DNA of 64,000 nucleotides from Rikenellaceae bacterium (GTDB taxonomy: Bacteria > Bacteroidota > Bacteroidia > Bacteroidales > Rikenellaceae). The DNA lies in contig SUZG01000001.1 in assembly GCA_015060015.1 (NCBI GenBank), positions 23,605 to 87,604 on the forward strand, in the 5' to 3' direction. The translations under genes were made by a program, and so were the position numbers. A model generated the notes under the pieces. The model did no database searches, was not told the origin of the DNA, and worked only from the letters and a program-made list of their open reading frames with translations. This document shows positions 24,463 through 61,611 of the stretch, one piece after another (position 1 is the stretch's first letter; the number at the start of each line of letters is the position of its first letter).

Positions 24463-24487
24463 TCTACGGACATTATCAAACAAAAAA

Positions 24488-24640
24488 CGGAATTATATAG
24501 ATTAATGTTGTACTTCAAAAATGTATAGAGATTCTCACGCATTTGTTTTTTTCGTCACTCTGAGGGAGGCTTGCCGACCGTGAGAGTCTAAAAACAAATG
24601 CTCAGAATGACGTTTAACAACACTAAACTATATAATTCCG
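24488..24640. mobile_element. MITE-like element copy 1 (153 bp), IS1595-family-like ends, REP-like core
   Basis: Terminal inverted repeats match at 21/23 (24488-24510 CGGAATTATATAGATTAATGTTG; 24618-24640 CAACACTAAACTATATAATTCCG). Flanks ACAAAAAA/AAAAAAAA match at 7/8. The 86-bp core 24529-24614 is shared with copy 2. Confidence 0.75.
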
Positions 24641-24659
24641 AAAAAAAAGAGTTTTCACT

Positions 24660-24962
24660 ATGCATTTAACACCAAAAGAGCTTGACAAGTTGACGCTGCT
24701 GTCGTTGGGAATGATAGCAGAAAGACGATTGAAAAAGGGGCTGAAACTAAATCACCCCGAGGCCGTAGCCTACATAACCTCGGAAGCCATAGAGGGTGCT
24801 CGCGAGGGGATGACCGTAGAGCAGGTTATGAGCCGAGCGGCGAAGCTCCTCACACGAAAGGATGTGATGGAGGGCGTAGCCGATATGATTCAACTATTGC
24901 AGGTCGAGGCGGTATTCACCGACGGCTCACGACTTGTGAGTATTCACCACCCCATAAAATAG
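24660..24962 (+). CDS. ureA: Urease subunit gamma
   Basis: [11 protein letters not shown]...[14 protein letters not shown]...[18 protein letters not shown]. Confidence 0.96.
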
Positions 24963-25491: not shown

Positions 25492-27210
25492 ATGGCAAAA
25501 CTTACGCGACAGGAGTACAACAACCTATTCGGCCCAACCGTAGGCGACAAGATTCGTCTGGGCGACACCGACCTCTATGTGGAGATAGAACGCGATATGC
25601 GTCGCTACGGCGACGAGGTGGTCTATGGCGGTGGCAAGACGCTGCGTGACGGTATGGGTCTGGCCAACACTGTAACATCGGAGCAGGGAGCTCTCGACAT
25701 AGTAATAACGAATGTGACAATCATAGATGCCATATTGGGTGTGGTGAAGGCCGACGTAGGCATAAAGGATGGCCGCATAGCGGGCATAGGCAAGGCGGGC
25801 AACCCCAACATTATGGACGGCGTGTCGCCCGAACTCGTCACGGGAGCCGCCACCGACGCCATATCGGGTGAGCATCTCATACTCACCGCCGGCGGTATCG
25901 ACTCACACGTTCACTTCGTATCGCCACAGCAGGCATACACAGCCCTGAGCAACGGCATAACGACACTCATAGGTGGCGGCATAGGCCCCTCGGACGGCAC
26001 AAACGGAACGACCATAACATCGGGACGCTGGTCCACCGAGCAGATGCTGCTCTCGGTGGAGGAGCTGCCTGTGAATGTGGGTCTGCTGGGCAAGGGTAAC
26101 TGCTCGGCGAAGCCTGCGATAAAGGAGCAGATTGAGGCGGGCGTATGCGGATTGAAGATTCACGAGGACTGGGGCTCAACACCCGAAGCCATACGCACAG
26201 CCCTGTCGGTGGCCGACAAGTATAATGTGCAGGTGGCCATACACACCGACACACTGAACGAGGCGGGATATGTCGAAGACACCATAGCCGCCATAGATGG
26301 CCGCACGATACACACCTACCACACCGAGGGTGCCGGCGGAGGACACGCCCCCGACCTGATGAAGGTGGCGTCGATGCCCTTCGTGCTGCCCTCATCGACA
26401 AACCCCACACTGCCCTTCGGCATAAACTCACAGGCCGAGTTGTTTGATATGATTATGGTGTGTCACAACCTCAACCCCAACATCCCGTCGGATGTAGCCT
26501 TTGCCGAGAGCCGCGTAAGGCCCGAGACACAGGCGGCAGAGAATGTGCTGCACGATTTGGGCGTATTGTCGATGGTGTCGTCCGACTCGCAGGCGATGGG
26601 CCGAGTGGGCGAGTCGTATATGCGTACATTCCAGATGGCTTCGTTTATGAAGAGTGCCTGCGGCCGCTTGGAGGAGGACTCGGCCGAGAACGACAACTTC
26701 CGCGTGCTGCGATACATAGCCAAGATAACGATCAACCCCGCCATAACATTCGGCGTGGCGGACTACATAGGCTCGGTCGAGAAGGGCAAGGTTGCCGACC
26801 TTGTGCTGTGGGAGCCGCAGTTCTTCGGTGCGAAGCCCAAGATGGTAATCAAGGGTGGCGTGATAAACTGGGCGAACATGGGCGATGCCAATGCCTCACT
26901 GCCCACGCCACAGCCCTGCCTCTATCGCCCGATGTTCGGTGCTTTTGGCGGTGCTATGCCGGCGAGCTGCATATCGTTTGTGTCGCAGGCGGCCTGCCGG
27001 AACGGCATTGCCGAACATTTGGGTCTGCGTCGTCAGGTGCTGCCCGTACGCCGCACACGCCAGCTCTCGAAGGGCGATATGGTACGCAACGGAGCAACGC
27101 CACGCATAGATGTCAATCCGGAGAGTTTCGAGGTGATGGTAAATAACATACACGCCTACGTGAAGCCGGCCGAGAGATTTCCGCTGTCGCAACTCTATTG
27201 GTTTGGGTAG
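25492..27210 (+). CDS. ureC: Urease subunit alpha
   Basis: [13 protein letters not shown]; Ni ligands DSHVH, LKIHED (carbamylated Lys), [13 protein letters not shown], flap MVCHNL and SSDSQAMGR. Confidence 0.98.
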
Positions 27211-32211: not shown

Positions 32212-33008
32212 GCCGGCGGCTATACGAGGCTCTGCATCTGATAGATGCCACAGAGCATACAGCACGCCAGAAAACGCCCCTTGCACAGATAGATGCGAGG
32301 GCGAAGATGGTCGTGCTGCTCACATTTCTGCTCACGATGCTCTCGCTGCCCGTCGAGAGGCTCTCCGAGCTGATGCTCTTTGCCATATATCCAATCACTA
32401 TGGCGGCAGCTGCCGGTATTGGCTATGGTCAGCTGCTGCGACGGTCACTCATCATCATACCCTTCGTGGCCCTCATAGCTCTGCCCAACATCCTCTATCA
32501 GCGTGAGCCTGTGCTGGTGGAAGGTGGCGTGGTCATCACGCGTGGCTGGATAACACTCCTCGCAATCACTCTGCGAGGCGTACTCGCAGTGCAGGGCGTG
32601 GTGGTGATGATAGCCTCTACGGGTCTTTATGGCACTTGTCGGGCGATGCAGAGGCTGGGAGTGCCATATATTCTGGCCTCGCAGATATATCTCACACTGC
32701 GTTACATACGCCTGATGGTCGAGCAGGCTCTCCACCTGCAACAGGCTGTGGAGTCGCGTCTGTTTAGTCGCAAAACCCTGCCGCTGACACTCTGGGCAAG
32801 GCTTACGGGGCGGCTTCTCCTCCTCTCCATTGGGCGGGGCGAGGCTGTGGGGCGTGCTATGGCCTCGCGAGGCTTTGTCGGGCAGATGCCACAACTACCC
32901 TACCACCACACCAGACGATGGCGACGAAGGGACAGCGTTTATCTTGTGGTGTGGTGCTGCACGCTGCTCTGCCTGCGTGTGCTGCACTTCGCCGAGATGA
33001 TTTTTTAG
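32208..33008 (+). CDS. cbiQ: ECF transporter transmembrane T component (CbiQ/NikQ)
   Basis: DARAK, LTLRYI, ESR and RGEAVGRAMASRGF (T-component Ala/Ser-Arg-Gly motifs). Confidence 0.88.
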   Translation: MSRRLYEALHLIDATEHTARQKTPLAQIDARAKMVVLLTFLLTMLSLPVERLSELMLFAIYPITMAAAAGIGYGQLLRRSLIIIPFVALIALPNILYQREPVLVEGGVVITRGWITLLAITLRGVLAVQGVVVMIASTGLYGTCRAMQRLGVPYILASQIYLTLRYIRLMVEQALHLQQAVESRLFSRKTLPLTLWARLTGRLLLLSIGRGEAVGRAMASRGFVGQMPQLPYHHTRRWRRRDSVYLVVWCCTLLCLRVLHFAEMIF

Positions 33009-33011
33009 TTT

Positions 33012-33154
33012 CGGAATTATCTATTTTAGGCTTGTTGCTAAAAAATAGATTCTCACGCATTTGTTTTTCGTCACTCTGAGAGAGGCTTGCCGACCGTGAG
33101 AGTCTAAAAACAAATGCTCAGAATGACGTTACAAGCCTAAATGATATAATTCCG
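33012..33154. mobile_element. MITE-like element copy 2 (143 bp) inserted between cbiQ and cbiO
   Basis: TIRs match at 21/24 (33012-33035 CGGAATTATCTATTTTAGGCTTGT; 33131-33154 ACAAGCCTAAATGATATAATTCCG). Perfect 8-bp direct duplication TTTAGTTT at 33004-33011 and 33155-33162. Core 33047-33130 differs from copy 1 only in T-run length (5 vs 7) and one G/A substitution. Confidence 0.82.
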
Positions 33155-33168
33155 TTTAGTTTTATGCT

Positions 33169-33906
33169 ATGCACCACTACCTGACATTCAATGACATACA
33201 CTTCCACTACCCCCACGCCGAGGAGGCTCTGCGGGGTGTGTCGTTCACGCTGCACCACGGCGAGCACGTCGCCATAGCAGGTGCTAACGGAGCCGGCAAA
33301 TCGACCCTGCTGATGCTCTGCAACGGCCTGCTGATGCCCACCTCGGGATGGGTCGATGTGGGAGGCGTGAGGCTCACCGAGCAGAGCCTGCAAACCATTC
33401 GCCAGCAGGTGGGGCTTATCTTTCAGGATGCCGACAATCAGCTCTTTATGCCTACCGTCGAGGAGGATATTGCCTTCGGGCCGTCACTTATGCACCTCAC
33501 CGACGAGGAGGTCGCAACACGCACCTCGCAGGCGATGCACGAGGTAGGCATCGAGCATCTGCGGGGGCGTGAGCCGCACTCATTGTCGGGTGGCGAGAAG
33601 CGGCGTACAGCCATAGCTACGGTGCTGGCGATGACACCCTCCATTCTGCTGCTTGACGAGCCTACGACAGGTCTTGACCCCAGATCGCGGCGGCAGCTGA
33701 TAGCGTTGCTGCGGAGCTTCCGGCACACGATGCTCATAGCCACGCACGATATGGATATGATAGCCGACCTCTGCCCCCGCACGATACTTCTGAACGAGGG
33801 TGTGGTGGCGGCAGATGCACCTACGGAGAAGATTTTTGACGATGCTTCACTGCTGGAAAGGTGCGGATTGGAGAGGCCCCTATCGTGGCAGGCGAGGGAG
33901 TTTTAA
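33169..33906 (+). CDS. cbiO: ECF transporter ATPase (CbiO/NikO)
   Basis: GANGAGKST, FQDADNQLFMPTVEEDIAFGP, LSGGEKRR and LLDEPT. Confidence 0.93.
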   Translation: MHHYLTFNDIHFHYPHAEEALRGVSFTLHHGEHVAIAGANGAGKSTLLMLCNGLLMPTSGWVDVGGVRLTEQSLQTIRQQVGLIFQDADNQLFMPTVEEDIAFGPSLMHLTDEEVATRTSQAMHEVGIEHLRGREPHSLSGGEKRRTAIATVLAMTPSILLLDEPTTGLDPRSRRQLIALLRSFRHTMLIATHDMDMIADLCPRTILLNEGVVAADAPTEKIFDDASLLERCGLERPLSWQAREF

Positions 33907-50106: not shown

Positions 50107-51597
50107 CTACAATGGATTCTGATCTGCGTCAGTGATGTATGGATTAGAGTTGATCTCAGAAGAAAGAGGAATCTGGAAAGTAAACAACTTACCAGCAGCC
50201 TGAACAACCTTATCAATATGGTTGCCAGAATCTGTACGGTCAATACCTACGTTGAAACGCTTGTTGGTATACCACTCGTGACCCTCACCCCACAACTCGA
50301 TACGGCTCTGCAAGTGAATCTCCTTCAAGAGCTCATCGCCTGTCTTCGATGACTTAGTGTAACCACTATCACGCTTTGACACCAAGTCGAACAAAGTCTG
50401 CTGTGCAGCAGCTGCCTGATTGTTGCGAGCCTCAGCCTCGGCCTTCAAGAGGTAAGCCTCTGAAAGACGGAAGAAAATCTCGTCAGTCTCCCATGTAGGA
50501 TGATCAAACTTTGTAGAAACGTAAGCGGGACGTTCGTACGACTTACCATCGTTAACATTAACAACCGGACCTGACTCCTTTACGAAATTCTTCTTACGAT
50601 AGTCGGTATCGGGAATCTGGTTGTAAAGACGGTCATCGATACAAATATAGATGCCTTGGTTAGAACCGTTATTGTCGAGAATAGATGGAGATGTCCAAGC
50701 AGAGAAAGCTTTGTTACCATTTGATGTAGAGATTGCCCAATCATAACCAAAAATAGTCTCCGGATATGATACATCGAGGAATCCTCCTGTATACTGCTCC
50801 TCATTCATCAATGAGTAACCAGATGCGATAACAGCTTCAGCAGCAGTAACGGCATCATCATACTCTCCGATAGTTACGCATACGCGAGCCAAAATCATAT
50901 TGGCAACATCCTGATCAATATCAGCGATTGTCTCCTGTGGATTGTAAGCATTCTCCTCGAACAATGTGACAGCTGACTCCAAGTCGCCCTTAATCTGAGC
51001 ATAAACCTCGGTTGAAGGAGTACGACCCATAGCACCACCTACAGTCAGATGGAGAGGTACACCGGCCTTATCCTTACCACCATGCATATAGTCATCCTGA
51101 TAGAGGTACATCAAGTTGTAGTAAGCCAAAGCACGATAGGTCAATGCCTGTGCCTTATAGATGGCTGCCGCACCTGTTACATCAGCAGGAATAAGATCCA
51201 AAATCTGGTTTGCCTTGTAAACCATCTTGTAGTAGAGGCTCCAACGACCAGAAGTGAAAGAGTCGGTCTGACGACGAAGATTAATCAACGCATACTGATC
51301 TGCATACCAGTTGGTATTGTTACTTAAAACCATATCATTACCCTGCATATCCATTTCCAAGCCCCAGCATGCATAACCGATATCCTCGGTACCGCTGTCA
51401 GGAGCTGCCGAATGGAGGAAACTGATAGCAGACTGCATCATAGGAGCCAAAACCTTGTCGGCATCCTTCTTAATAAGCTCTTGGAGCTGCTCATCAGATA
51501 TTGAGCTACCTGCGGGATCAACATCGAGAGCATTAGCACATGATCCAAAGAGCATCGTTACGGCAATAGCCGCCAAATATAATATATTCTTTTTCAT
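50107..51597 (-). CDS. RagB/SusD family lipoprotein (left pair)
   Basis: Lipobox LFGS-C, ALTYRALAYYNL, FRLSEAYLLKAEA and RIELWGEGHEW. Confidence 0.93.
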   Translation of the reverse strand: MKKNILYLAAIAVTMLFGSCANALDVDPAGSSISDEQLQELIKKDADKVLAPMMQSAISFLHSAAPDSGTEDIGYACWGLEMDMQGNDMVLSNNTNWYADQYALINLRRQTDSFTSGRWSLYYKMVYKANQILDLIPADVTGAAAIYKAQALTYRALAYYNLMYLYQDDYMHGGKDKAGVPLHLTVGGAMGRTPSTEVYAQIKGDLESAVTLFEENAYNPQETIADIDQDVANMILARVCVTIGEYDDAVTAAEAVIASGYSLMNEEQYTGGFLDVSYPETIFGYDWAISTSNGNKAFSAWTSPSILDNNGSNQGIYICIDDRLYNQIPDTDYRKKNFVKESGPVVNVNDGKSYERPAYVSTKFDHPTWETDEIFFRLSEAYLLKAEAEARNNQAAAAQQTLFDLVSKRDSGYTKSSKTGDELLKEIHLQSRIELWGEGHEWYTNKRFNVGIDRTDSGNHIDKVVQAAGKLFTFQIPLSSEINSNPYITDADQNPL

Positions 51598-51618
51598 ATT
51601 TTATACCCTCCTTTAATT

Positions 51619-54600
51619 TTACAAGTTAAGTGTCAAACCAAATGTAAATGTGCGTGCCTGCGGGAAGTTTACGAATGCTGTGCCTGTGTAACCTGCACGA
51701 GGATCGAAACCGTCGTGAGCAGTGATGAAGCACAAGTTATCAGCATTGAAGAATACTCGCAATGACTGCAAACCGATCTTTGAAGTCCACTTCTTGGGCA
51801 ATGTATAACCAACATTTACGTTCTTCAGATTGAAGTAAGAAGCCTTACGATACAATGCATCGCATCTTGAAGAACCAAAGTCCCAAACACCATTGTAGAT
51901 AACACGTGGGTACTCTGCATTAGGATTCTCGGGAGTCCAAGTATTACCTGCCAAGTCGTCAGATACGGCAAAACCGGGACGCCAAACCTCGTACAAGTTA
52001 GCAGAAGCAGCATCCCACTGAAGACCACCCAACTGATAAGCAGCTGCTACGGTCAAATCGAAGCCCTTCCACTGGAAAGTAGTGCGGATACCACCTACGA
52101 TATCGGGCATTGCATCACCAATCTCATACTGTGAAGCCTCAGCGTAGTTCTCGGTAAGCTCGTCGCCGATAACATTACCGTTCTCGTCCTTAATCTGCTT
52201 CCAGAACTGCTCGTTACCATTCTCAGGATTAACGCCTGCATACTTGAACAAATAGAGGTTGTAGTATGACTTACCCTCGCCACGAAGGAATGCACCTGAT
52301 ACATAGTTACCACCGAGTGCGGGGTTACCCAACTCTGCGGGGAAGTCGATCAACTTGTTCTGCGACATAGCACCGTTAATGCTGATGTTCCAGTATACAT
52401 TCTTTGTCTTGATAAGATCAACTGTTACATCAAACTCGAAACCAGAGTTCTCCAATACACCTACATTCTCCAAGCGTGAAGACAAACCTGTTGAAGATGG
52501 AGTAGGACGGCTCCAGATAAGATCATGAGTACGACGGTTATAGTAATCCAAAGTACCATAAACGCGATCCCACAAACGGAAGTCAACACCTACATCGACC
52601 TGCTTGTTCTTCTCCCAGCTAAGATTACGGTTACCGATTGTTGACTGTGAGATAGTAGGCTGGCCATTCAACTCACCGATACCCCAAAGGTTTGTATAGG
52701 GATAAGCAGAGCTCAAACGGTTACCAGAAACACCATAGGTAGCACGCAAACGAAGGTCATTTACCCAAGTAGCGTTCTCCATCCACTTCTCATTGTTAAT
52801 CTTCCAAGAAGCACCCACTGACCAGAAGTGACCCCACTTGTCATACTTAAACATTGAGGTACCATCGTAACGATAAGAAGCTGATACGGTATAACGATCA
52901 TCGTAGGTATAGTTTGCACGAGCAAAGTAACCCTCGATAGCAGTCTTAACAGTTGAAGAGGTAGAACCATCCTCCAATGGAGTGATAGCGTTACCCAACT
53001 CAGGAATACCCGGGTAGAATACGTTCTTCTTGTAAGCATCAACTGTTACATCCTCGTCCTTGCTGAACTCGTGACCAATCATTGCATCAACAACATGTAC
53101 CTTGTTGATCTTCTTGTGGTAAGACAACATCTGCTGAGTATTCAACGACATATAGTTGTTCATAACCTTCTCAACGATACCGTTCCAAGATGGGTCAGCA
53201 GCTGTACCATACTCATTGTTAGAGTAATAAGTAGCAGCAGCATATACATTGTCCAATGTAATGTTTGCAGTGAACTTGAAATCCTTCAAGAAAGTGATAT
53301 CAACATAAGCGTTTGCAAAGAGGTTATCACGAATCTGATTGTTAATGTCGTGAGTGAATGACTGATAAGGGTGAGCAGAGTTCATAGAGTTGAAGATATC
53401 CAGACCTGGTCCATAAACAGAGGTTGTTGTACCCATACCATTCTCATAAACCTTATTACCATTCTCATCCAAGATGATGTTACCTTGCGGGTCGCGTGCA
53501 TAGTAAGGCACCAAAGGTGACTGCCAAGCAGTCCAAAGGAATGCGTTACCAGTGTTAGCAGCACCACCGAAACCAGGGTTATCGGTATCACGACGTGTGT
53601 AGGCGATGTTAGTACCCAGCTTCATCCACTTTGTAACCTGTGCATTTACGGCAGCACGAGCTGAGAAACGCTTGAACGCAGACATGATAATGTAAGAAGG
53701 ATCCTCCAAGAAACCTCCTGATACATAGTAATCAACACGGTCGTTACCACCACTTACACTCAAAGTGTACTCCTGACGGAACTGCTGAGTAAAGAGATAA
53801 TCGTCGTAGTTATCATAGTAGAGCAACTTTGCGTCCTTGTGGATCTTACCTGTTGTAGGATCAATAGGAGTAGACATACCCTCAGGAATAGAATAAGGCA
53901 TATATCTTCTGAGCATTGTTGACAGGTTGCCTTGTGCCAAGCCGTGAGCACGAGCAGCGTCGCCACCATAGCCATCAAGACCATAGTTATACAAGCCCAA
54001 GTAGAAGTGCTCGATATACTGAGCAGGGTCCATTGTATGGTGCTCCTCTACACCAATCTCGTTCCAACCCCACTTACCCTCGAAGGTAATGTTGGCTTTC
54101 TGATTGCGAGCACCCTTCTTTGTAGTTACGAATACGACACCATTCGCTGCACGAGCACCATACAATGCGTTTGCAGCAGCATCCTTTGATACTACAACTG
54201 ACTCGATGTCAAGAGGGTTGATAGTTGTAAGTGATGATGAATAAGGTACACCATCAACAACAATCAACGCACCTGTGTTACCATTGATAGAACCGACACC
54301 ACGAATAAGAATAGAAGCATCGGTACCTGGCTGACCTGTTGTGCTGTAAGACTGAATACCCGGAACAGCACCCTCCAAGGCCTTAGTAACGGTTGATACA
54401 GTCATCTTCTGAAGGTCCTTGGCGGTAACGGCTGCAACCGAACCGGTCATATCCTTCTTCTTAACCTCACCGAAGGTCTGAACGACAACCTCATCAATGG
54501 CTTGAAGGTTCTCCTTCAACACAACGTTAAAAGAGGTTTTGCCGGCAACCTCAATACGCTGGGCCTCATAACCGATGAACGATACTAACAAAGTACCATT

Positions 54601-54804
54601 AGCGGGGGCCTGCAATACGAAATCACCATCCACATTAGTTGTAACACCGATATTAGTGCCTTCAACGAATACGGTAGCACCTACGACAGGAGCACCAGCT
54701 GAATCGACAACCGTACCGGTCACTTTCTGATTCTGAGCCATTGCCATAGCAACCACGCCCAGAACAGCTACGATAGAAAGTACAATTTTCCTAACCATAA
54801 GCAT
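51619..54804 (-). CDS. SusC/RagA family TonB-dependent transporter (left pair)
   Basis: CarboxypepD_reg-like N-terminus, GQPGTDASILIRG, INPLDIESVVVSKDA..ALYGARAANGV, LSWEKNKQ and PQARTFTFGLTLNL. Confidence 0.95.
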   Translation of the reverse strand: MLMVRKIVLSIVAVLGVVAMAMAQNQKVTGTVVDSAGAPVVGATVFVEGTNIGVTTNVDGDFVLQAPANGTLLVSFIGYEAQRIEVAGKTSFNVVLKENLQAIDEVVVQTFGEVKKKDMTGSVAAVTAKDLQKMTVSTVTKALEGAVPGIQSYSTTGQPGTDASILIRGVGSINGNTGALIVVDGVPYSSSLTTINPLDIESVVVSKDAAANALYGARAANGVVFVTTKKGARNQKANITFEGKWGWNEIGVEEHHTMDPAQYIEHFYLGLYNYGLDGYGGDAARAHGLAQGNLSTMLRRYMPYSIPEGMSTPIDPTTGKIHKDAKLLYYDNYDDYLFTQQFRQEYTLSVSGGNDRVDYYVSGGFLEDPSYIIMSAFKRFSARAAVNAQVTKWMKLGTNIAYTRRDTDNPGFGGAANTGNAFLWTAWQSPLVPYYARDPQGNIILDENGNKVYENGMGTTTSVYGPGLDIFNSMNSAHPYQSFTHDINNQIRDNLFANAYVDITFLKDFKFTANITLDNVYAAATYYSNNEYGTAADPSWNGIVEKVMNNYMSLNTQQMLSYHKKINKVHVVDAMIGHEFSKDEDVTVDAYKKNVFYPGIPELGNAITPLEDGSTSSTVKTAIEGYFARANYTYDDRYTVSASYRYDGTSMFKYDKWGHFWSVGASWKINNEKWMENATWVNDLRLRATYGVSGNRLSSAYPYTNLWGIGELNGQPTISQSTIGNRNLSWEKNKQVDVGVDFRLWDRVYGTLDYYNRRTHDLIWSRPTPSSTGLSSRLENVGVLENSGFEFDVTVDLIKTKNVYWNISINGAMSQNKLIDFPAELGNPALGGNYVSGAFLRGEGKSYYNLYLFKYAGVNPENGNEQFWKQIKDENGNVIGDELTENYAEASQYEIGDAMPDIVGGIRTTFQWKGFDLTVAAAYQLGGLQWDAASANLYEVWRPGFAVSDDLAGNTWTPENPNAEYPRVIYNGVWDFGSSRCDALYRKASYFNLKNVNVGYTLPKKWTSKIGLQSLRVFFNADNLCFITAHDGFDPRAGYTGTAFVNFPQARTFTFGLTLNL

Positions 54805-54855
54805 TAATTTTTGTAAGTTTGTAAACTTTGTGTATTTACCTTTTTAATAAAAAAA
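54759..54855 (-). repeat. Left arm of 97-bp perfect inverted repeat (5' UTR + first 15 codons of left susC)
   Basis: Reverse complement matches 56763-56859 base for base. Confidence 0.95.
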
Positions 54856-55040
54856 CACAACACTGACCCTATGCTGCTACAAGCCTTCCGAAAAGATAAA
54901 AATTAGTGGCGTAGAGGCGGTTTCTATTACTAAATGCACCAGCGATTATTAATGGTAAATATCACAAAAACAACCGGTTATAATCGCAAATAGCTTATTG
55001 TACGTCAACGTGCGATTACTAACTACAAATCATTACTACT

Positions 55041-56291
55041 ATGAAAAATTGTTTTAGAATTACGTTTTATCTCAAACAAAATTCCCCTTTGTCTGACGGA
55101 ACGTGTCCCATCATGTGTCGTATATCTATTGCGGGAGAGAAATGCGTTTTAGCAACCCACTTATCGCTGAAAAAGAAGCTTAAATGGGTAGTATCGAAAC
55201 AACAGGTGGCAGGCAGAAGCGATGAGGCCTGCCGAATAAACAAGTTACTGGATAAAGTACGCTACGGGCTCTATGAGGCATATATAGATGTATTGAAAGG
55301 TTCGGAAAATCCTTCGCCGCAAGCTGTTCGCAGTCGTTTCTTGGGCGAGACGAGAGAACAAATGGGGTTAGTGGCATTTTTTCGGCATCACAACAATGAA
55401 TTTAAGCGTATGGTTGGCATATCTCGCAGCGAGAATACTTTGCATAAATATCAATATGTATGCAATCACTTGGCGGCGTTTATAGAAAAGCAAAAAGCGA
55501 CTCCCGACATACCTATATATAATATAGGATACGATTTTATCTGCGATTTTCATCGCTATCTGCTCAAGGAGGTAGGTTGCAGCACCAATACAGTGTGGAT
55601 TTATATGACGGCTTTGAAGCGTATTCTTCACATAGCGATAGGTCAGGGTCTGCTTTCAACAAACCCATTTTCGGGCTACCACCTACCCTTTCGGCAGCAG
55701 CACAGAAACTTCTTGATGCGTGAGGAGTTGCAACGGCTAACCAAACTGCATCCCGACACCCCCATACAACGTATTGTGTTGGATGCCTTCCTCTTCGGAT
55801 GCTTTACAGGGCTATCCTATTCCGATATAAAACGCTTCACGATGGATAATGTGATTTTTAGTAACGGGCAGATGTCCATCACCATTCATCGAACAAAGAC
55901 TTTGACTCCAGTCGAGATGCCATTGCTCAGCCTCCCCTCATCGATAGTGCAAAATTACGGATGCTCATCCTCTGTGCCACTATTCAAACTCCCCTCAAAC
56001 TACTATTGCAATAGGGTGTTGAGGCAACTATTGCCAATGGTGGGCATAACACGTCGCATAACATTCCACTCGGCTCGCCACACCTTTGCAACTACGATTG
56101 CACTCTCCAACGGCATCCCCTTGGAGGTGGTGAGTGCTATGTTGGGACATAGATCCATAAAAACAACCCAGATTTATGCCCGTGTACAACAATCAACCAT
56201 CCACCAGGTCCTGCAACGGGTGTCAGGCGAGATAAATACCTACTACTGCGAGGGTTTGCAGCCACCACAACGACGCGAGATACGGATATAA
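55041..56291 (+). CDS. Bacteroidota site-specific tyrosine recombinase (Arm-DNA-binding + SAM-like + catalytic domains); putative DNA invertase
   Basis: ITFYLK...CPIMCRISI arm domain, SENTLHKY SAM domain, FGCFTGLSYSD, RTKT, FHSARHTFATT and MLGHRSIKTTQIYA. Confidence 0.92.
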   Translation: MKNCFRITFYLKQNSPLSDGTCPIMCRISIAGEKCVLATHLSLKKKLKWVVSKQQVAGRSDEACRINKLLDKVRYGLYEAYIDVLKGSENPSPQAVRSRFLGETREQMGLVAFFRHHNNEFKRMVGISRSENTLHKYQYVCNHLAAFIEKQKATPDIPIYNIGYDFICDFHRYLLKEVGCSTNTVWIYMTALKRILHIAIGQGLLSTNPFSGYHLPFRQQHRNFLMREELQRLTKLHPDTPIQRIVLDAFLFGCFTGLSYSDIKRFTMDNVIFSNGQMSITIHRTKTLTPVEMPLLSLPSSIVQNYGCSSSVPLFKLPSNYYCNRVLRQLLPMVGITRRITFHSARHTFATTIALSNGIPLEVVSAMLGHRSIKTTQIYARVQQSTIHQVLQRVSGEINTYYCEGLQPPQRREIRI

Positions 56292-56722
56292 CATAGCCAA
56301 AACGAGGGTTTTCTCACTAACAAAACTAAAAAACAGGGTGCCAACTCTCGCAAAACATAACATTGGTTTGCATATATATTCTCCAAAATGGAATTTTTAT
56401 CGCCTTTGGAAGATAAAGAGAATCTTGCGTGCCACAACACCTTCAAAAAATAAATAAAAAAGGGATAAAGAAGCCTATCACACGAGTAGAAAAGTATAGA
56501 ATTTGTCATTTTTTGGCTATAAATTGATATTTTTACTGCCCAAATTGGCACAATTTATAACTTAAATGACTTATTGCTGTGAGATTTTTTAAGGGCTGAC
56601 AAGAAAATGCTTACACTTTTTACGTTTTTCAACATTTCTGATTAAAAACAATACGACAAAGTGCCTATTATATCAAAAAGTGTTATTTATTACAAATTAT
56701 TATTAATTTAATGTTAATTTTT

Positions 56723-56754
56723 TTTGCTTGTTATAAATATAAAGGTTATCTTTG
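56723..56754 (+). promoter_or_regulatory. Consensus Bacteroidota promoter (-33 TTTG 56723-56726, 20-bp spacer, -7 TATCTTTG 56747-56754) driving the right susC/susD
   Basis: Both boxes at canonical spacing, immediately inside the right inverted repeat. Confidence 0.8.
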
Positions 56755-56762
56755 CGAATGTA

Positions 56763-56859
56763 TTTTTTTATTAAAAAGGTAAATACACAAAGTTTACAAA
56801 CTTACAAAAATTAATGCTTATGGTTAGGAAAATTGTACTTTCTATCGTAGCTGTTCTGG
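56763..56859 (+). repeat. Right arm of 97-bp perfect inverted repeat (5' UTR + first 15 codons of right susC)
   Basis: TTTTTTTATTAAAAAGGTAAATACACAAAGTTTACAAACTTACAAAAATTAATGCTTATGGTTAGGAAAATTGTACTTTCTATCGTAGCTGTTCTGG. Confidence 0.95.
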
Positions 56860-59800
56860 CAGTGAGCTTCGCAGCCCTTGCACAGAACAAGCAAGTGAGT
56901 GGTACGGTAACTAATTCAGACGGTTTGGCTGTCGCTGGTGCAACTGTTATCGTTGAGGGCACAACAAACGGAGTTATTACCGACACTAATGGTGCATTTA
57001 ATTTGTCTGCACCCGCAAACGGTACACTCGTAGTTTCTTTCCTCGGTTATGAGGAGGAGTCTATTCCCGTTGCAGGCAAGACAAGCATCAACGTAGTTTT
57101 GAAGACTGCCTCTGAGAAGCTCGACGAGGTTACAGTCGTTGCTTTCGGCACAAAGCGTAAGCAGGATATCGTAGGTTCTGTGGCAACTGTTAAGGAGGGT
57201 CTTATCAGCAACTCACAGGCTACATCAGTATCTGCTGCTTTGGAGGGTGCCGTTGCAGGTTTGCAGGTCTTCACATCATCAGGTCAGCCCGGTTCTGACT
57301 CATCAATCCTCTTGCGTGGTGTTGGTTCTTTGGATGGTAGCAACAGTGCTTTGATCGTTGTTGACGGTGTGCCTTTCAATGGCTCATTGTCAGACTTGAA
57401 CCCCGCCGACATCCAGTCAATCACCGTATCAAAGGACGCCGTATCTAACTCATTGTACGGTTCACGTGCTGCCGGTGGTGTGGTTATGGTAACTACAAAG
57501 CGTGGTTCTAACGACCGCATTCAGATTAACTTCACAGGTAACTGGGGTGTTACAAGCCGTGCTTACAAGGATTACGACATGGTAACCGATCCGGGTGAGT
57601 TCTATGAGTTGACATGGTATGGTATCCGTAACTCAGAGTGGGCAAAGAACGAGCATGATCTTGCTGCCGCTAATGCTTATGCAACAGATGCTTTGCTTGG
57701 TGAAGTAGGTAACTACAACGCATTCATCATTCCAGAGGGCGAGCCTTTGGTAGGTCTTGATGGTAAGTTGAACCCCAATGCTCGTGCTCGTTACAACGAC
57801 TCATTTGCTGATGCATTGTTCGATACATCATTCCGTCAGGAGTATCAGGTATCTGCAGCCGGTGGTTCAGACAAGTCTGACTACTATGTATCATTGAGCT
57901 ACCTTGATAACGACTCTTACGTTATCGGTTCAGACTTCACTCGTTTGACTACACGTGTTAATCTTAACACTCAGCTCCGTAAGTGGTTGCGCGTAGGTGC
58001 TAACCTCTCTTACTCAAAGACAGATCAGAATGGTGTTCAGGAGAGCACAAGTGCTGCTTCTAACCCATTTGACGTTGCTCGTGGCTGGGCTCCTATCTAC
58101 CCCGTACACGCATACGATGCAGAGGGTAACTTGAAGTACAACGTTGACGGTACTCCTATGTACGATGCTGGTACAGGTCAGACTGACGGTACTATTTCTC
58201 GTCCTACTGCAACCAACCAGAACGTTGTTTGCTCTATGTTGGAGGATGTTCGTAACGCTGAGTCACACAACCTTGCTACTCGCTTGTTCGCAGAGATTAA
58301 GTTCCTGAAGGACTTCACTTTCACTGCTAACTACGCTTACGACTACTCTCACTCTTTCCAGACTGTTTACTATACTCCTACTATCGGTGATGGTCAGTCA
58401 TTCCAGGGTCGTAGTACAAAGTATTCAGGTTCAGGTACTACTACCAACTTCAACCAGATTTTGGCTTACAACAAGATCGTTGGCGAGCACAATATATCTG
58501 CAAAGATTGGTCACGAGTACTATGTATATAAGGGTAGAGGTTTCGAGGGTCAGAAGACTCGTTTCTTTGATCCTATGAACCACGAGCTTATCAATGGTGG
58601 TCAGATGGAGTATATCACATCTTCTACCTCACACCACAACATCGAGGGTTACTTCGCTATGGCAGACTACAACTATGGTAGCAAGTACTATTTGTCAGCT
58701 GCTTATCGTCGTGACGGTACATCTCGTTTCTTGCAGCGTTGGGGTAACTTCTGGTCAGTAGGTGCTGGCTGGCGAATCTCAAAGGAGAAGTGGATGGAGA
58801 ACGCAACGTGGGTTAACGACTTGAAGATCCGTGCATCTTATGGTACACAGGGTAATGAGAATGGTAACCTGGGTTACACTCCTTATCAGGACTTGTGGTC
58901 AGTAACCTGGGATGGTTCACAGCTCGCATACTCTCCTGCATTCTACGGTAACCCCGATTTGACTTGGGAGAAGCAGGCTACTGTTGACGCAGGTATCGAC
59001 TTCCGTTTGTGGAATCGCGTATCAGGTTCTATTGAGTACTACTACCGTAAGACCGATGATATGCTCTTCCAGGTTCCGAAGTCAATCGCTTCAGGTCGTC
59101 CTTACAACTGGGAGAACCTCGGTGCTATGTCAAACCAGGGTGTTGAGTTCGAGGTAACTGTTGATTTGGTTAAGACTCGCAAGGTTAACTGGTCTGTAAC
59201 TTTGGTAGGTGCTCACAACACTAACAAGTTGCTCACTCTTCCCGAGGAGAATCGTGCAGATGGTATCGTAGCTGGTCAGTTCAAGCGTATGGAGGGTAAG
59301 AGTATCTATGAGTACTACACTTACCGCTATGCAGGTATGAACGAGCAAGGTCAGCCTCAGTGGCACGGCTTCCAGCGTGATGATGAGGGTGAGTATGTTC
59401 TCGACGAGGCAGGTAACAAGATCCCTGCAATCTCTACTAACTACTCTTACGCTGAGAAGGAGTACATTGGCAAGGTTGCTACTCCCGATTTGACTGGTGG
59501 TTTGAGCACTACATTCAAGTGGAACGGTATCGATGTTAACATCGCAACTGCATTCCAGATTGGTGGTTGGGCATATGACTCTTCTTATGTTGGTGAATTG
59601 AGCCAATCATTCTATGTTGGTCACCACCGCGATATGTGGAAGACTTTCAACCCCGAGACTATGGAGGGTAAGTATCCTATCTGGAACGCTAACGATTCTG
59701 TTAACACCTATACTAAGGCATCTGATGCACACCTTATCAGTGCTTCTTACTTCAGCTTGCGTAACGTAACTATCGGTTACTCATTCCCCAAGAAGTGGAT

Positions 59801-59972
59801 GCAGAAGTTGGGTATCGGTGGTATCCGTGTATATGTAACAGGAGATAACCTCGCTTTGTGGTCTAAGCGTCAGGGATTTGACCCACGTGTATCTGTAAGC
59901 GGTGGAAACAGTGGTTTCAGTGGTTATGCTCCTTTGCGTGTAATCTCTGGTGGTATTAACCTTACATTCTAA
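56814..59972 (+). CDS. SusC/RagA family TonB-dependent transporter (right pair)
   Basis: GQPGSDSSILLRG, LNPADIQSITVSKDA..SLYGSRAAGGV, LTWEKQ and APLRVISGGINLTF. Confidence 0.95.
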   Translation: MLMVRKIVLSIVAVLAVSFAALAQNKQVSGTVTNSDGLAVAGATVIVEGTTNGVITDTNGAFNLSAPANGTLVVSFLGYEEESIPVAGKTSINVVLKTASEKLDEVTVVAFGTKRKQDIVGSVATVKEGLISNSQATSVSAALEGAVAGLQVFTSSGQPGSDSSILLRGVGSLDGSNSALIVVDGVPFNGSLSDLNPADIQSITVSKDAVSNSLYGSRAAGGVVMVTTKRGSNDRIQINFTGNWGVTSRAYKDYDMVTDPGEFYELTWYGIRNSEWAKNEHDLAAANAYATDALLGEVGNYNAFIIPEGEPLVGLDGKLNPNARARYNDSFADALFDTSFRQEYQVSAAGGSDKSDYYVSLSYLDNDSYVIGSDFTRLTTRVNLNTQLRKWLRVGANLSYSKTDQNGVQESTSAASNPFDVARGWAPIYPVHAYDAEGNLKYNVDGTPMYDAGTGQTDGTISRPTATNQNVVCSMLEDVRNAESHNLATRLFAEIKFLKDFTFTANYAYDYSHSFQTVYYTPTIGDGQSFQGRSTKYSGSGTTTNFNQILAYNKIVGEHNISAKIGHEYYVYKGRGFEGQKTRFFDPMNHELINGGQMEYITSSTSHHNIEGYFAMADYNYGSKYYLSAAYRRDGTSRFLQRWGNFWSVGAGWRISKEKWMENATWVNDLKIRASYGTQGNENGNLGYTPYQDLWSVTWDGSQLAYSPAFYGNPDLTWEKQATVDAGIDFRLWNRVSGSIEYYYRKTDDMLFQVPKSIASGRPYNWENLGAMSNQGVEFEVTVDLVKTRKVNWSVTLVGAHNTNKLLTLPEENRADGIVAGQFKRMEGKSIYEYYTYRYAGMNEQGQPQWHGFQRDDEGEYVLDEAGNKIPAISTNYSYAEKEYIGKVATPDLTGGLSTTFKWNGIDVNIATAFQIGGWAYDSSYVGELSQSFYVGHHRDMWKTFNPETMEGKYPIWNANDSVNTYTKASDAHLISASYFSLRNVTIGYSFPKKWMQKLGIGGIRVYVTGDNLALWSKRQGFDPRVSVSGGNSGFSGYAPLRVISGGINLTF

Positions 59973-59997
59973 TTAACAGTAACCTTAAAAACAGATA

Positions 59998-61611
59998 ATG
60001 CTTATGAAAAAGATATTTTTAATCTTGGCGGCAGGTGTTGCAGTAACACTTACGTCTTGTCTTAAGGACGCAGAGGTTACAGCTTACTTGACTCCGGATT
60101 CAAAGAACGAGATCGCATCTGCAGATCCCGGTAAGATTTTTGATGCCGCTGTAGCCGGTATCTATACAGACATCCAAAGTTATGTTTATTCTAACCAGCA
60201 GCACAACAACTTTGGTCAGAAGAGTTTTGACTACCTTTCATCACTGTTGGGTAACGACTTGATTATGACAGGCCGTTTCGGTATGAGTTTGTATCACTAT
60301 CAGTTGTCTTCTTGGTCAGACACCCAGTATTGGTTTGTTGAGAACCGTTGGAGAGAGCACTACAACCATATTTCAAACGCAAACTCTATCCTTGGCTCTA
60401 TCTCAGCTGATGAGACCAATCCTGAGGTTTTGAAGTATAAGGCTTATGCACAGACTGCTCGTGGTTATGCATACCTGCACCTCTCTTACCTCTTTGGTGT
60501 ACCTTACTATATGGGTGCCGAGGGTACTGCTTGGGGTATGAACACCAAGTACTCTGGTTCTAACGCCGATGCTCCTTGTGTACCTATCATCAAGGAGGAT
60601 ACTCAGGGTGACCAGCCTCGTGCAACTGTAGGTCAGGTATTTGAGCTTATCGTTAGCGATTTGACAGCTGCTTATGAGTTCTTCGATGCTAATGGTATGC
60701 TTATGACAGCAACTCCTACCGACTTTGATGGTTTGGTAGCAGCTAACTACTTGATGCGTGCTCATATGATTATGCACAACTGGACTGAGGCCGAGCAGTA
60801 TGCAAAGATTATCGTTGATACAGCTCCTATAGCATCTGCTGCTGATTTGATGCAGGGCTTTAGCGATATCTCTCTTCCTAACGTCATCTTTGGTTGCGAT
60901 ATTACTGCCGATAACACTACCACCTATATGTCATACTTCTCACAGATGGATATGTTCGGTGATGGTTATGCAGGTATTGGTGTATGGCGTGCAGCTGATG
61001 CTCGTTTGATGTCTAACATCCCTACAACCGATATCCGTCGTGACTGGTTCGTATGTCCTGATAACCACGCCAAGTTGAGTGCAGAGTTGGGCTTGTACCC
61101 AATTCCGTACTACACAGAGGGTCCATCACCTGCTAACTTCCCTATGTATCAGGCTTGTAAGTTCATTGGTGCAGGTCGTGCTAATGTTGTTGACGGTTAT
61201 GGCGATGGCTGGCACCTCGGTGACTACATCTACTTGCGTTCAGAGGAGGCACACTATTGCTTGGCTGAGATCTATGCTCACCAGAACAACTTGGATGGTG
61301 CTATCAAGGTATTGGAGGATCTTACCAAGATTCGTAACGCAGAGTACGCTTATGCAGGTGCGAAGACAAAGGCAGATGTTATCTCTGAGATTATCCTTCA
61401 GAAGCGTATCGAGTTCTGGGGTGAGGGTCTTGAGCATATCGACAACCGTCGTTTGAACATCCCTGTTACTCGTAACTACGAGGGTAGCAACCACCTTGCT
61501 GCTTGTGCTTACAATATTGGTCAGGAGGATCCACGTTTCGTATATATGATTCCTATCGCCGAGATCGAGGCTAACTCAATGATCGATGAGGAGGATCAGA
61601 ATATGCACTAG
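59998..61611 (+). CDS. RagB/SusD family lipoprotein (right pair)
   Basis: Lipobox TLTS-C, AQTARGYAYLHL, YLRSEEAHYCLAE and KRIEFWGEG. Confidence 0.93.
   Translation: MLMKKIFLILAAGVAVTLTSCLKDAEVTAYLTPDSKNEIASADPGKIFDAAVAGIYTDIQSYVYSNQQHNNFGQKSFDYLSSLLGNDLIMTGRFGMSLYHYQLSSWSDTQYWFVENRWREHYNHISNANSILGSISADETNPEVLKYKAYAQTARGYAYLHLSYLFGVPYYMGAEGTAWGMNTKYSGSNADAPCVPIIKEDTQGDQPRATVGQVFELIVSDLTAAYEFFDANGMLMTATPTDFDGLVAANYLMRAHMIMHNWTEAEQYAKIIVDTAPIASAADLMQGFSDISLPNVIFGCDITADNTTTYMSYFSQMDMFGDGYAGIGVWRAADARLMSNIPTTDIRRDWFVCPDNHAKLSAELGLYPIPYYTEGPSPANFPMYQACKFIGAGRANVVDGYGDGWHLGDYIYLRSEEAHYCLAEIYAHQNNLDGAIKVLEDLTKIRNAEYAYAGAKTKADVISEIILQKRIEFWGEGLEHIDNRRLNIPVTRNYEGSNHLAACAYNIGQEDPRFVYMIPIAEIEANSMIDEEDQNMH

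What the first reader, a model, noticed from the sequence alone, without database searches (positions are those of the whole stretch)
24488..24640. Inner TIR halves differ between the two copies yet stay self-complementary within each copy
Seen: beyond the shared first 9 bp, copy 1 arms read ATAGATTAATGTTG / CAACACTAAACTAT and copy 2 arms read CTATTTTAGGCTTGT / ACAAGCCTAAATGAT. Each left arm pairs with its own right arm (21/23 and 21/24) but not with the other copy's arms, while the 84-86-bp cores are nearly identical. Inference: a near-identical cargo inside divergent but internally matched ends is not simple MITE drift. It suggests either that the core is itself mobile and lands between different IS-end pairs, or that pairing of the arms (a large ssDNA/RNA stem) is selected or regenerated on each insertion.
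Basis: partly seen in the sequence, partly recalled or inferred. Interest (0 to 1): 0.65.

Follow-up and report, generated by a model that had tools for sequence, protein, structure and literature searches.

The report
Alistipes MITE with two arm variants
The two ~150-bp repeats are recently inserted copies of a small non-coding jumping element (a MITE) of gut Alistipes. Their "matched but different" ends are two inherited variants of one end sequence, not ends rebuilt or strongly selected in each copy. The middle of the element is unusually well conserved.

Summary
Copy 1 (24488-24640) and copy 2 (33012-33154) share a core that differs by 1 substitution in 82 bases plus a 2-T length difference. 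Their 24-nt arms differ at 10 of 48 positions, and each copy's arms pair 22/24 and 21/24.

"Does not pair with the other copy's arms" is overstated, because cross-pairing is 18-20/24. The arms are two variants of one homologous terminal inverted repeat. They differ by one dinucleotide changed on both arms (TG to GC) plus uncompensated changes.

The element is a genuine MITE with 8-bp AT-rich target duplications. Both sites are exactly empty in strains with identical UreA and CbiO proteins.

Across 16 full copies from about 24 insertion sites:
- Own-arm pairing is barely better than pairing with another copy's arm (85.0% vs 82.7%; 19.25 vs 18.6 of 24).
- Arm asymmetries are inherited through separate insertions.
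- G·T and A·C mismatches are equally common.
- One end-chimera and copies with swapped arms exist.

So pairing is not regenerated at insertion, and per-copy selection for pairing is weak at best.

"Not simple drift" stands: arms diverge about 8 times more than the core (0.21 vs 0.027, r=0.08). The core folds as a nested rod whose apex stem covaries.

The parts
24488..24640 (+). MITE copy 1 (type-1 arms), 153 bp, between crcB (minus strand) and ureA. It ends 19 nt before the ureA ATG.
   Evidence: The site is empty in L029, L030, L033 and L034 and filled in L028, L031, L032 and L035. Contigs that skip the element were also seen in runs X10, X25 and X26.
24480..24487 (.). Left copy of the target-site duplication of copy 1 (ACAAAAAA). 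The right copy is 24641-24648 (AAAAAAAA), a 7/8 match.
   Evidence: The empty sites read ...ATCAYAAAAAA(AA)GAG.
24488..24511 (+). Left 24-nt terminal inverted repeat of copy 1: a 9-nt conserved terminus CGGAATTAT plus a 15-nt inner half.
24512..24528 (+). Type-1 left spacer. In most type-1 copies it forms a small side hairpin (TACC-N8-GGTA). It is shorter (11 nt) in type-2 copies.
   Evidence: Alignment. The hairpin is read directly from the sequences.
24529..24612 (+). Conserved 84-nt core. Segments: A 24529-24539, B 24540-24552, C 24553-24564, apex 24565-24578, A' 24579-24589, B' 24590-24600, C' 24601-24612. The consensus fold is a nested rod: AUUCU/AGAAU, a 12-bp B/B' helix, ACUCU/AGAGU, tandem G·A, and a 2-4-bp apex stem with a tetraloop or triloop.
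   Evidence: (RNAalifold consensus).
24617..24640 (+). Right 24-nt terminal inverted repeat of copy 1.
33012..33154 (+). MITE copy 2 (type-2 arms), 143 bp, inserted in the 9-nt gap between cbiQ and cbiO.
   Evidence: The site is empty in L036 and L038-L042 and filled in L037.
33004..33011 (.). Left copy of the perfect 8-bp target-site duplication TTTAGTTT of copy 2. The right copy is 33155-33162.
   Evidence: Empty alleles carry a single TTTAGTTT.
33012..33035 (+). Left TIR of copy 2. It carries the type-2 dinucleotide GC at arm positions 19-20 and the patch CTAT at positions 10-13.
33047..33128 (+). Core of copy 2, 82 nt. It differs from the copy-1 core by 1 substitution and two fewer T.
33131..33154 (+). 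Right TIR of copy 2. It carries the matching GC at positions 19-20. Its patch reads ATCA in reverse complement, which does not pair with the left arm's CTAT.

Best explanation
Shown:
- Both repeats are copies of a ~145-153-bp MITE family of Alistipes. Each has a 24-bp terminal inverted repeat with an invariant 9-bp tip (CGGAATTAT). Each makes an 8-bp AT-rich target duplication.
- Both copies inserted recently. Conspecific strains with identical UreA and CbiO proteins have exactly empty sites.
- The two arm types are inherited variants (subfamilies) of one TIR. In each subfamily both arms carry the same dinucleotide at positions 19-20, TG in type 1 and GC in type 2. The remaining differences are unpaired.
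- Arms are copied faithfully at transposition, mismatches included. Afterwards they drift at about the rate of the flanking DNA.
- Arms, spacers, apex and core reassort between copies. There is one chimera and two copies in which the arms are swapped relative to the interior.

Inferred:
- A DDE transposase supplied in trans moves the element. The 8-bp duplication and the CGGnnTT..TAT tip point to an IS1595-type enzyme.
- The few changes present on both arms arose by occasional arm-to-arm copying. Two routes are plausible. One is template switching within this long quasi-palindrome. The other is recombination between the two inverted arms, which also flips the interior.
- These changes were then inherited by all descendants of that master copy.
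- The near-identical core reflects constraint on the copies that keep proliferating, and/or homogenisation by gene conversion between copies.
For: MITE status:
- Perfect 8-bp duplications in W2, L005, L010, L012, L015, L017 and L025, and 7/8 in several others.
- Exact empty sites at both loci. Contigs that skip the ureA-side copy were also seen in other runs.
- About 24 distinct intergenic insertion sites in at least 3 Alistipes species plus gut metagenomes.
- Orientation relative to the downstream gene is 13 same and 13 opposite.
- Summed k-mer depth over the core is about 40 times that of the flanks in one metagenome. This is not a copy number.

Arms:
- 85.0% of cells pair, against 82.7% after shuffling right arms among copies. 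Nine cells changed on both sides, against 4.5 expected.
- Own-arm match is 19.25/24, against 18.6/24 with other copies' arms. The W1 left arm pairs 24/24 with the L017 right arm but only 22/24 with its own.
- Type-2 left arms at five sites (W2, L001, L005, L008, L010) all carry CYAT. The type-2 right arms (W2, L001, L005) all carry ATCN instead. L015 and L025 share the same G·T mismatch at different sites.
- G·T mismatches number 16 and A·C 14.
- L010 has a type-2 left arm and a type-1 right arm, with a perfect duplication.
- In L018 each arm matches the opposite type-2 arm of the standard layout, and the L021 right arm carries the left-arm CTAT patch.
- 248 of 903 site pairs show all four gametes.

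Rates at orthologous insertions:
- Arms plus spacers: 8 differences in 192 nt. Flanks: 62 in 1671 nt (p=0.69).
- Core: 2 differences in 247 nt (p=0.013 against flanks).

Precedents: quasi-palindrome template switching is an established bacterial mutation mechanism (PMC7202029). Subtypes and inversion are reported for the Correia MITE (PMC10969869).
Against: - No autonomous IS with these ends was found, so the transposase family is inferred only.
- The arm-to-arm copying step is inferred from patterns, not observed.
- Pairing in own arms is slightly above the shuffled value (4/500 shuffles reach it). Four to six pairs have compensated changes. Weak selection for pairing is therefore not excluded.
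- The copies were found through exact 20-21-mers inside the core. This biases the sample towards young or conserved cores, although segments A, B and C were never part of a pattern.
- One orthologous pair (L006/L026) ends at a metagenome contig end and could be a chimeric assembly.
- The cause of the core's conservation is unresolved.
Confidence: 0.6

Rival explanations
1. The whole element functions as a long hairpin in RNA or single-stranded DNA. It could be a target for a double-strand RNase, or it could modulate mRNA stability. Arm pairing would then be kept by selection, as an extension of the structured core.
For: - The element folds into one rod: -47 to -63 kcal/mol, z-scores -5.8 and -6.7.
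- The apex stem truly covaries: GG/CC, GC/GC, CG/CG, GGGC/GCCC, GGGU/ACCC and GGAC/GUCC. Plus-strand loops include CUUG, GACA and GUAA.
- In L021 and L027, ACUCU/AGAGU becomes ACGCU/AGCGU.
- Arms contain 4-6 pairs with compensated changes.
- The isolated core folds 2-4 kcal/mol better on the plus strand in 14 of 18 copies.
- Contigs carrying the element occur in metatranscriptomes.
Against: - Own-arm pairing is barely better than pairing with a random arm.
- G·T (16) and A·C (14) mismatches are equally common in the arms.
- Orientation relative to genes is random, 13:13.
- Recently moved copies carry mismatched arms (W1 22/24, W2 21/24).
- A chimera with 13/24 arm pairing keeps a perfect duplication (L010).
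- The outer core helices never vary, so they give no covariation support.
- RNA depth over the element is no higher, relative to flanks, than DNA depth.
Confidence: 0.2
2. The two arm types are adapted to two different but related transposases. Each MITE subfamily keeps both ends matched to its own enzyme's binding specificity.
For: - The type-defining dinucleotide lies at TIR positions 19-20, away from the conserved cleavage tip, and is the same on both arms.
- Both subfamilies inserted recently in one lineage.
- Types segregate by genome in the two MAGs: three type-1 copies in one and two type-2 copies in the other.
Against: - No IS was found.
- The chimera L010 (type-2 left arm, type-1 right arm) has a perfect 8-bp duplication. 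This suggests mixed ends can still be moved, unless it arose by conversion in place.
- Independent birth from two IS variants would not give an identical core.
Confidence: 0.15
3. The core is itself a mobile or separately propagating module that enters pre-existing pairs of IS ends.
For: - Cores or core modules occur without recognisable arms in L016, L004b and L006b.
- Arms occur with most of the core deleted in L018.
- Core and arm histories are incongruent.
Against: - Armless cores are degenerate or rearranged and show no recognisable arms of their own.
- The two arm types are homologous variants of one TIR (38/48 identical).
- The spacers that differ between types travel with the arms.
- Copies found through a core pattern almost always carry arms.
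Confidence: 0.05

Closest known systems
MITEs derived from IS1595-family insertion sequences (8-bp duplication)
   Same: Small non-coding element with terminal inverted repeats and an 8-bp AT-rich target duplication. It has many dispersed intergenic copies, and insertions are polymorphic between strains. From memory, the terminus CGGAATTAT resembles the ISfinder end consensus of the ISNha5 (CGGnnTT) and ISNwi1 (ggnnatTAT) groups.
   Different: No partner IS or transposase was found here. The interior is much better conserved than the inner TIR, which is the reverse of what is usual for MITEs.
Correia elements (CREE/NEMIS) of Neisseria
   Same: About 100-150 bp. They come in subtypes and have been reported to invert (PMC10969869). 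They have rod-like transcripts that RNase III cleaves at the TIRs, and they often sit just upstream of genes (PMC10969869). That the subtypes are left/right TIR variants in various combinations is my recollection, not taken from that review.
   Different: Correia elements duplicate a TA dinucleotide, not 8 bp. They belong to a different host phylum and are unrelated in sequence.
ERIC/IRU sequences of enterobacteria
   Same: Imperfect palindromes of about 127 bp, intergenic, and conserved across species more than expected. From memory, compensatory changes are reported in Wilson and Sharp 2006. ERIC elements affect mRNA decay (PMC10969869).
   Different: ERIC elements lack an 8-bp duplication and defined DDE-type ends, and little recent mobility is documented for them. 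The Alistipes copies are demonstrably recent insertions.
REP/REPIN elements mobilised by RAYT transposases
   Same: Hairpin modules with covarying stems that can occur as inverted doublets. L004b carries two core modules in inverted orientation.
   Different: REPINs make no target duplication and have no terminal inverted repeats of the DDE kind. This element has both.
Quasi-palindrome template-switch mutagenesis (a mechanism, not a family)
   Same: This is a known way by which imperfect inverted repeats acquire complementary, often multi-base changes in a single event (PMC7202029). It fits the dinucleotide present on both arms and the arm alleles that appear on either side.
   Different: It was not observed here. 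It is inferred from sequence patterns only.

Membership tests
MITE (non-autonomous DDE-transposon derivative) | Short (<300 bp) and non-coding | tested here: met
   The elements are 142-169 bp. No gene-length ORF spans any copy, and the only ORFs over W1 and W2 are short mechanical ones that overlap neighbouring genes.
MITE (non-autonomous DDE-transposon derivative) | Terminal inverted repeats | tested here: met
   24-nt arms with 85% of cells paired across 16 copies. Tip positions 8-9 are invariant.
MITE (non-autonomous DDE-transposon derivative) | Target-site duplication of fixed length, confirmed by empty sites | tested here: met
   The 8-bp duplication is perfect in 7 copies. Empty alleles carry a single copy of TTTAGTTT at cbiQ-cbiO.
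MITE (non-autonomous DDE-transposon derivative) | Multiple dispersed copies and insertion polymorphism | tested here: met
   About 24 insertion sites. Filled and empty alleles exist at both window sites.
MITE (non-autonomous DDE-transposon derivative) | A related autonomous IS with the same ends | not testable with these tools
None was found in the fetched loci, plasmids, phages or viral contigs.
IS1595-family derivative | 8-bp target duplication | tested here: met
   This feature is not exclusive: IS6, ISL3, IS66 and IS256 also give 8 bp (from memory).
IS1595-family derivative | Ends matching a subgroup consensus, and a DDE_Tnp_IS1595 transposase partner | not tested
   The end consensus is recalled from ISfinder, and the source paper is not held. 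No transposase sequence was obtained.
REP/REPIN with RAYT | No target duplication and no DDE-type TIRs | tested here: not met
   An 8-bp duplication and 24-nt TIRs are present.
Cis-regulatory structured RNA (riboswitch or leader) | Fixed orientation and position relative to the regulated gene | tested here: not met
   13 copies share the downstream gene's orientation and 13 are opposite.
Cis-regulatory structured RNA (riboswitch or leader) | Match to a curated RNA family | tested here: not met
   Rfam gave no hit at gathering scores. The best E-value over the element was 1.1, which is chance level.
Correia-like element | TA target duplication | tested here: not met
   The duplication here is 8 bp.

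The most novel reading that the evidence does not exclude
The 82-84-nt core is a functional structured module, in RNA or single-stranded DNA. It would be kept almost invariant by purifying selection across Alistipes species. It would ride on interchangeable IS1595-like arms that are free to drift, swap and flip. The cargo, not the ends, would then be the conserved and selected part of this mobile element.
Probability: 0.2. Interest if true: 0.6.

Novelty: new member of a known kind. Interest (0 to 1): 0.3.

Why it matters
- The work documents an active, apparently undescribed MITE family in a common gut genus. One copy landed 19 nt upstream of the urease operon. Another split the cbiQ-cbiO junction of the linked nickel/cobalt importer. 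Strains with and without each insertion exist, which is a ready-made natural experiment on urease and nickel-uptake expression.
- "Covarying" inverted-repeat arms seen in only two copies can be a subfamily effect. With 16 copies the signal nearly vanishes.
- The open question is why the interior of a MITE is held more constant than its transposase-binding ends and than the neighbouring coding DNA.

Tried and rejected
No full copy census or IS search in the window's own genome was possible.
- Rfam: nothing on the element.
- Plasmid and phage collections: no copy. A 53-nt left-end query gave only chance hits.
- Viral contigs: four scans (core 21-mer, type-1 arm, type-2 arm, gapped core module) gave nothing or chance hits in coding DNA.
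- Parent IS in the fetched loci: every other CGGAATTAT-like site lies in coding sequence by chance.
- Hammerhead-like reading of CUGAGGA...GAC: rejected. The position equivalent to A14 is C, and no stem I can form in cis. This is from sequence inspection and general knowledge of the hammerhead core.
- Intrinsic terminator: rejected. The inner hairpin is preceded by a U-run and followed by an A-run, and these simply extend the helix.
- The non-nested A-B-C/A'-B'-C' topology as a pseudoknot: rejected. The helices abut without linkers. The consensus and minimum-energy folds are the nested rod.
- Metatranscriptomes: the strain in those samples has the empty ureA site, so they say nothing about this copy's transcript.
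- Literature: no paper on an Alistipes MITE was found. The ISfinder end table could not be read.

Full report
**What is there**

The window holds two copies of one element. W1 lies at 24488-24640, between crcB (minus strand) and ureA. W2 lies at 33012-33154, between cbiQ and cbiO.

Each copy has four parts:
- a 24-nt left arm;
- a spacer (17 nt in W1, 11 nt in W2);
- an 82-84-nt core;
- a 24-nt right arm after a 2-4-nt spacer.

The cores differ by one substitution and two T. The nine outermost bases (CGGAATTAT / ATAATTCCG) occur nowhere else in the window, against 0.45 expected. Both copies fold far better than shuffled sequence, with z-scores of -5.8 and -6.7. Own-arm complementarity is 22/24 for W1 and 21/24 for W2.

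**It is a mobile element and it moved recently**

W2 is flanked by a perfect TTTAGTTT duplication, and W1 by ACAAAAAA/AAAAAAAA. I looked up contigs that encode exactly the same UreA and CbiO proteins:
- Six contigs have cbiQ and cbiO 9 nt apart and read ...GATTTTTTAGTTTTATGC, with a single TTTAGTTT.
- Four contigs have an empty crcB-ureA spacer.
- Others carry the same insertions as the window.
- One assembly, GCA_045585935.1, is empty at both sites.

Contigs that skip the ureA-side copy also appear in further public runs. Both arm types have therefore transposed recently within one species.

**Family**

- Genome scan: 5 true copies in two Alistipes MAGs, plus 2 chance hits.
- Metagenome scan: 20 copies.
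- A profile search of the fetched loci added a few degenerate copies.

In all there are about 24 distinct insertion sites, and three of them are sampled twice as orthologous pairs. All are intergenic. Thirteen are co-oriented with the downstream gene and thirteen are opposite. Perfect 8-bp AT-rich duplications flank W2, L005, L010, L012, L015, L017 and L025. In one gut metagenome that holds the window's strain, summed k-mer depth over the core is about 40 times that of the flanks. That figure is not a copy number, but it indicates many copies.

Rfam, plasmid, phage and viral collections have nothing. The element meets every MITE criterion I could test. Its partner IS could not be looked for. 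Assignment to an IS1595-type transposase rests on the 8-bp duplication and on end consensus sequences that I recall from ISfinder. It is a lead, not a result.

**The arms**

Aligned, the two arm types are clearly one homologous TIR (38/48 identical). Type 1 reads CGGAATTAT-ATAG-TTTAG-TG-TTGT on both arms. Type 2 reads ...TTTAG-GC-TTGT on both arms. The type-2 left arm has CYAT at positions 10-13, where the right arm has ATCN in reverse complement. The W1/W2 contrast therefore reduces to one dinucleotide changed on both arms plus uncompensated differences. Cross-pairing is 18/24 and 20/24, not absent.

Across 16 full-length copies from different sites:
- 85.0% of arm cells form pairs, against 82.7% when right arms are dealt out at random among copies. 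Nine cells changed on both sides, against 4.5 expected. Four of 500 shuffles reach the observed pairing. By the tool's own caveat, related sequences reach such values without any structural constraint.
- Own-arm match averages 19.25/24, against 18.6/24 with other copies' arms. The W1 left arm fits the L017 right arm perfectly (24/24) but its own only 22/24.
- Mismatches are G·T 16 times and A·C 14 times, so neither strand is favoured as RNA.
- The same asymmetries recur at different insertion sites. Type-2 left arms at five sites all carry CYAT, and the type-2 right arms at W2, L001 and L005 all carry ATCN instead. L015 and L025 share the same G·T mismatch. Arms are therefore copied as they are, not rebuilt from one another at insertion.
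- W1 and W2 are themselves recent insertions with mismatched arms, so perfect pairing is not needed for mobility.

**Reassortment**

- L010 joins a type-2 left arm to a type-1 right arm (13/24 pairing) and still has a perfect duplication.
- The allele GATTAATG sits on the left arm in W1 and L024 but on the right arm in L017 and L010.
- In L018 the right arm is the reverse complement of the type-2 left arm (22/24, including the CTAT patch). Its left arm matches the type-2 right arm (22/24). The arms are thus swapped relative to the interior. The L021 right arm shows the same left-arm CTAT patch.
- 248 of 903 informative site pairs show all four gametes.
- At the orthologous pair L006/L026, the right arm of one copy carries alleles common elsewhere in the family. 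This suggests conversion from another copy.

Recombination between the element's own inverted arms flips the interior. Template switching in quasi-palindromes is a known mechanism (PMC7202029). Inversion of Correia elements is reported (PMC10969869). These are adequate known mechanisms for the few changes found on both arms. I infer them; I did not observe them.

**The core**

The "A-B-C / A'-B'-C'" cross-complementarity noted by another first-stage note is real, but the consensus fold is a fully nested rod. From outside to inside it consists of:
- the arms;
- AUUCU/AGAAU;
- a 12-bp B/B' helix;
- ACUCU/AGAGU with a G·U pair;
- tandem G·A;
- a short apex stem.

Only the inner part varies, and it varies with compensation:
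- The apex stem appears as GG/CC, GC/GC, CG/CG, GGGC/GCCC, GGGU/ACCC and GGAC/GUCC.
- The loops include CUUG, GACA, GUAA, AUUG, UCU, AUC, AUU and AAC.
- In L021 and L027, ACUCU/AGAGU becomes ACGCU/AGCGU.

The outer helices never vary. In part this is because B' and C' were fixed by my search word.

Segments A, B and C were never part of a search word, yet they diverge by only 0.027 on average. The arms diverge by 0.21, and the two measures are uncorrelated (r=0.08). At three orthologous insertions:
- Core: 2 differences in 247 nt.
- Arms plus spacers: 8 in 192 nt.
- Flanks: 62 in 1671 nt.
- Core against flanks gives p=0.013, and arms against flanks gives p=0.69.

The arms thus behave like neutral flanking DNA after insertion, while the core is held constant. 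I cannot tell whether this reflects constraint on the proliferating master copies, conversion among the many identical cores, or a host-level function. Caveats:
- Copies were ascertained through the core.
- The numbers are small.
- One pair ends at a metagenome contig end.

**Verdict on the reading**

Both proposed mechanisms fail in their strong form. The core does not hop between different IS-end pairs, and the arms are not regenerated. The arms are, at most, weakly selected to pair.

The best account is an ordinary, active MITE with two arm subfamilies, occasional arm-to-arm copying and inter-copy recombination, and an unusually conserved rod-shaped interior. A large census of prokaryotic MITEs lists more than 80,000 distinct MITEs in Bacteroidota genomes (PMC11602168). 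This family may therefore already sit in a catalogue, but I found no description of it.

Noticed in passing
window 25642-25942 (-): Rfam gathering-level hit to 5_ureB_sRNA (RF02514; 57.4 bits, E=2.8e-12), antisense inside the urease alpha-subunit gene. It may only reflect conserved urease coding sequence rather than a real antisense RNA in Alistipes.
   Followed up: no
window 50275-61434: A nested series of inverted repeats (I1-I6). It includes 106-nt arms that are 97% complementary at 54754-54859 and 56759-56864, with weaker arms extending outwards over about 11 kb. This looks like a large inverted duplication of paralogous genes.
   Followed up: no
L001 3173-3200 (minus-strand view, just upstream of the full copy): The sequence ACGGAATTATATAATTTTCTT looks like a left tip joined directly to a right tip, with nothing between. 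It could be an arm pair without a core or an excision or deletion remnant. It abuts a full type-2 copy.
   Followed up: partly
L017 4968-5136 (-) and L014: Variant copies carry an extra hairpin (CGTTGCTGAAAAAAGTAACG in L017) inserted between segments A' and B'. This turns the rod into a three-way junction. L019 has an insert of about 110 nt at the same place.
   Followed up: partly
L004 2862-3010 (-): Two core hairpin modules lie in inverted orientation, without B/B' and without arms. The arrangement resembles a REP doublet.
   Followed up: partly
L006 5884-6078 versus L026: The same insertion site occurs in two genomes whose upstream DNA differs by about 10-30% per 100 nt. The element and the last 42 nt before it are nearly identical (5/146 and 1/42). 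Possible causes are a transferred or converted patch, strong constraint, or a chimeric metagenome contig.
   Followed up: partly
window 24641-24662 and 33155-33171: Both insertions sit 14-19 nt before a start codon (ureA, cbiO). The whole rod hairpin is likely to be in the leader or inter-cistronic RNA of the urease and nickel/cobalt-uptake genes in strains that carry it.
   Followed up: no
window 24546 region (T-run of segment B): The T-run between B and C varies from 4 to 7 T among copies, and within metagenomes. It is a slippage-prone tract that changes the length of the B/B' helix.
   Followed up: no
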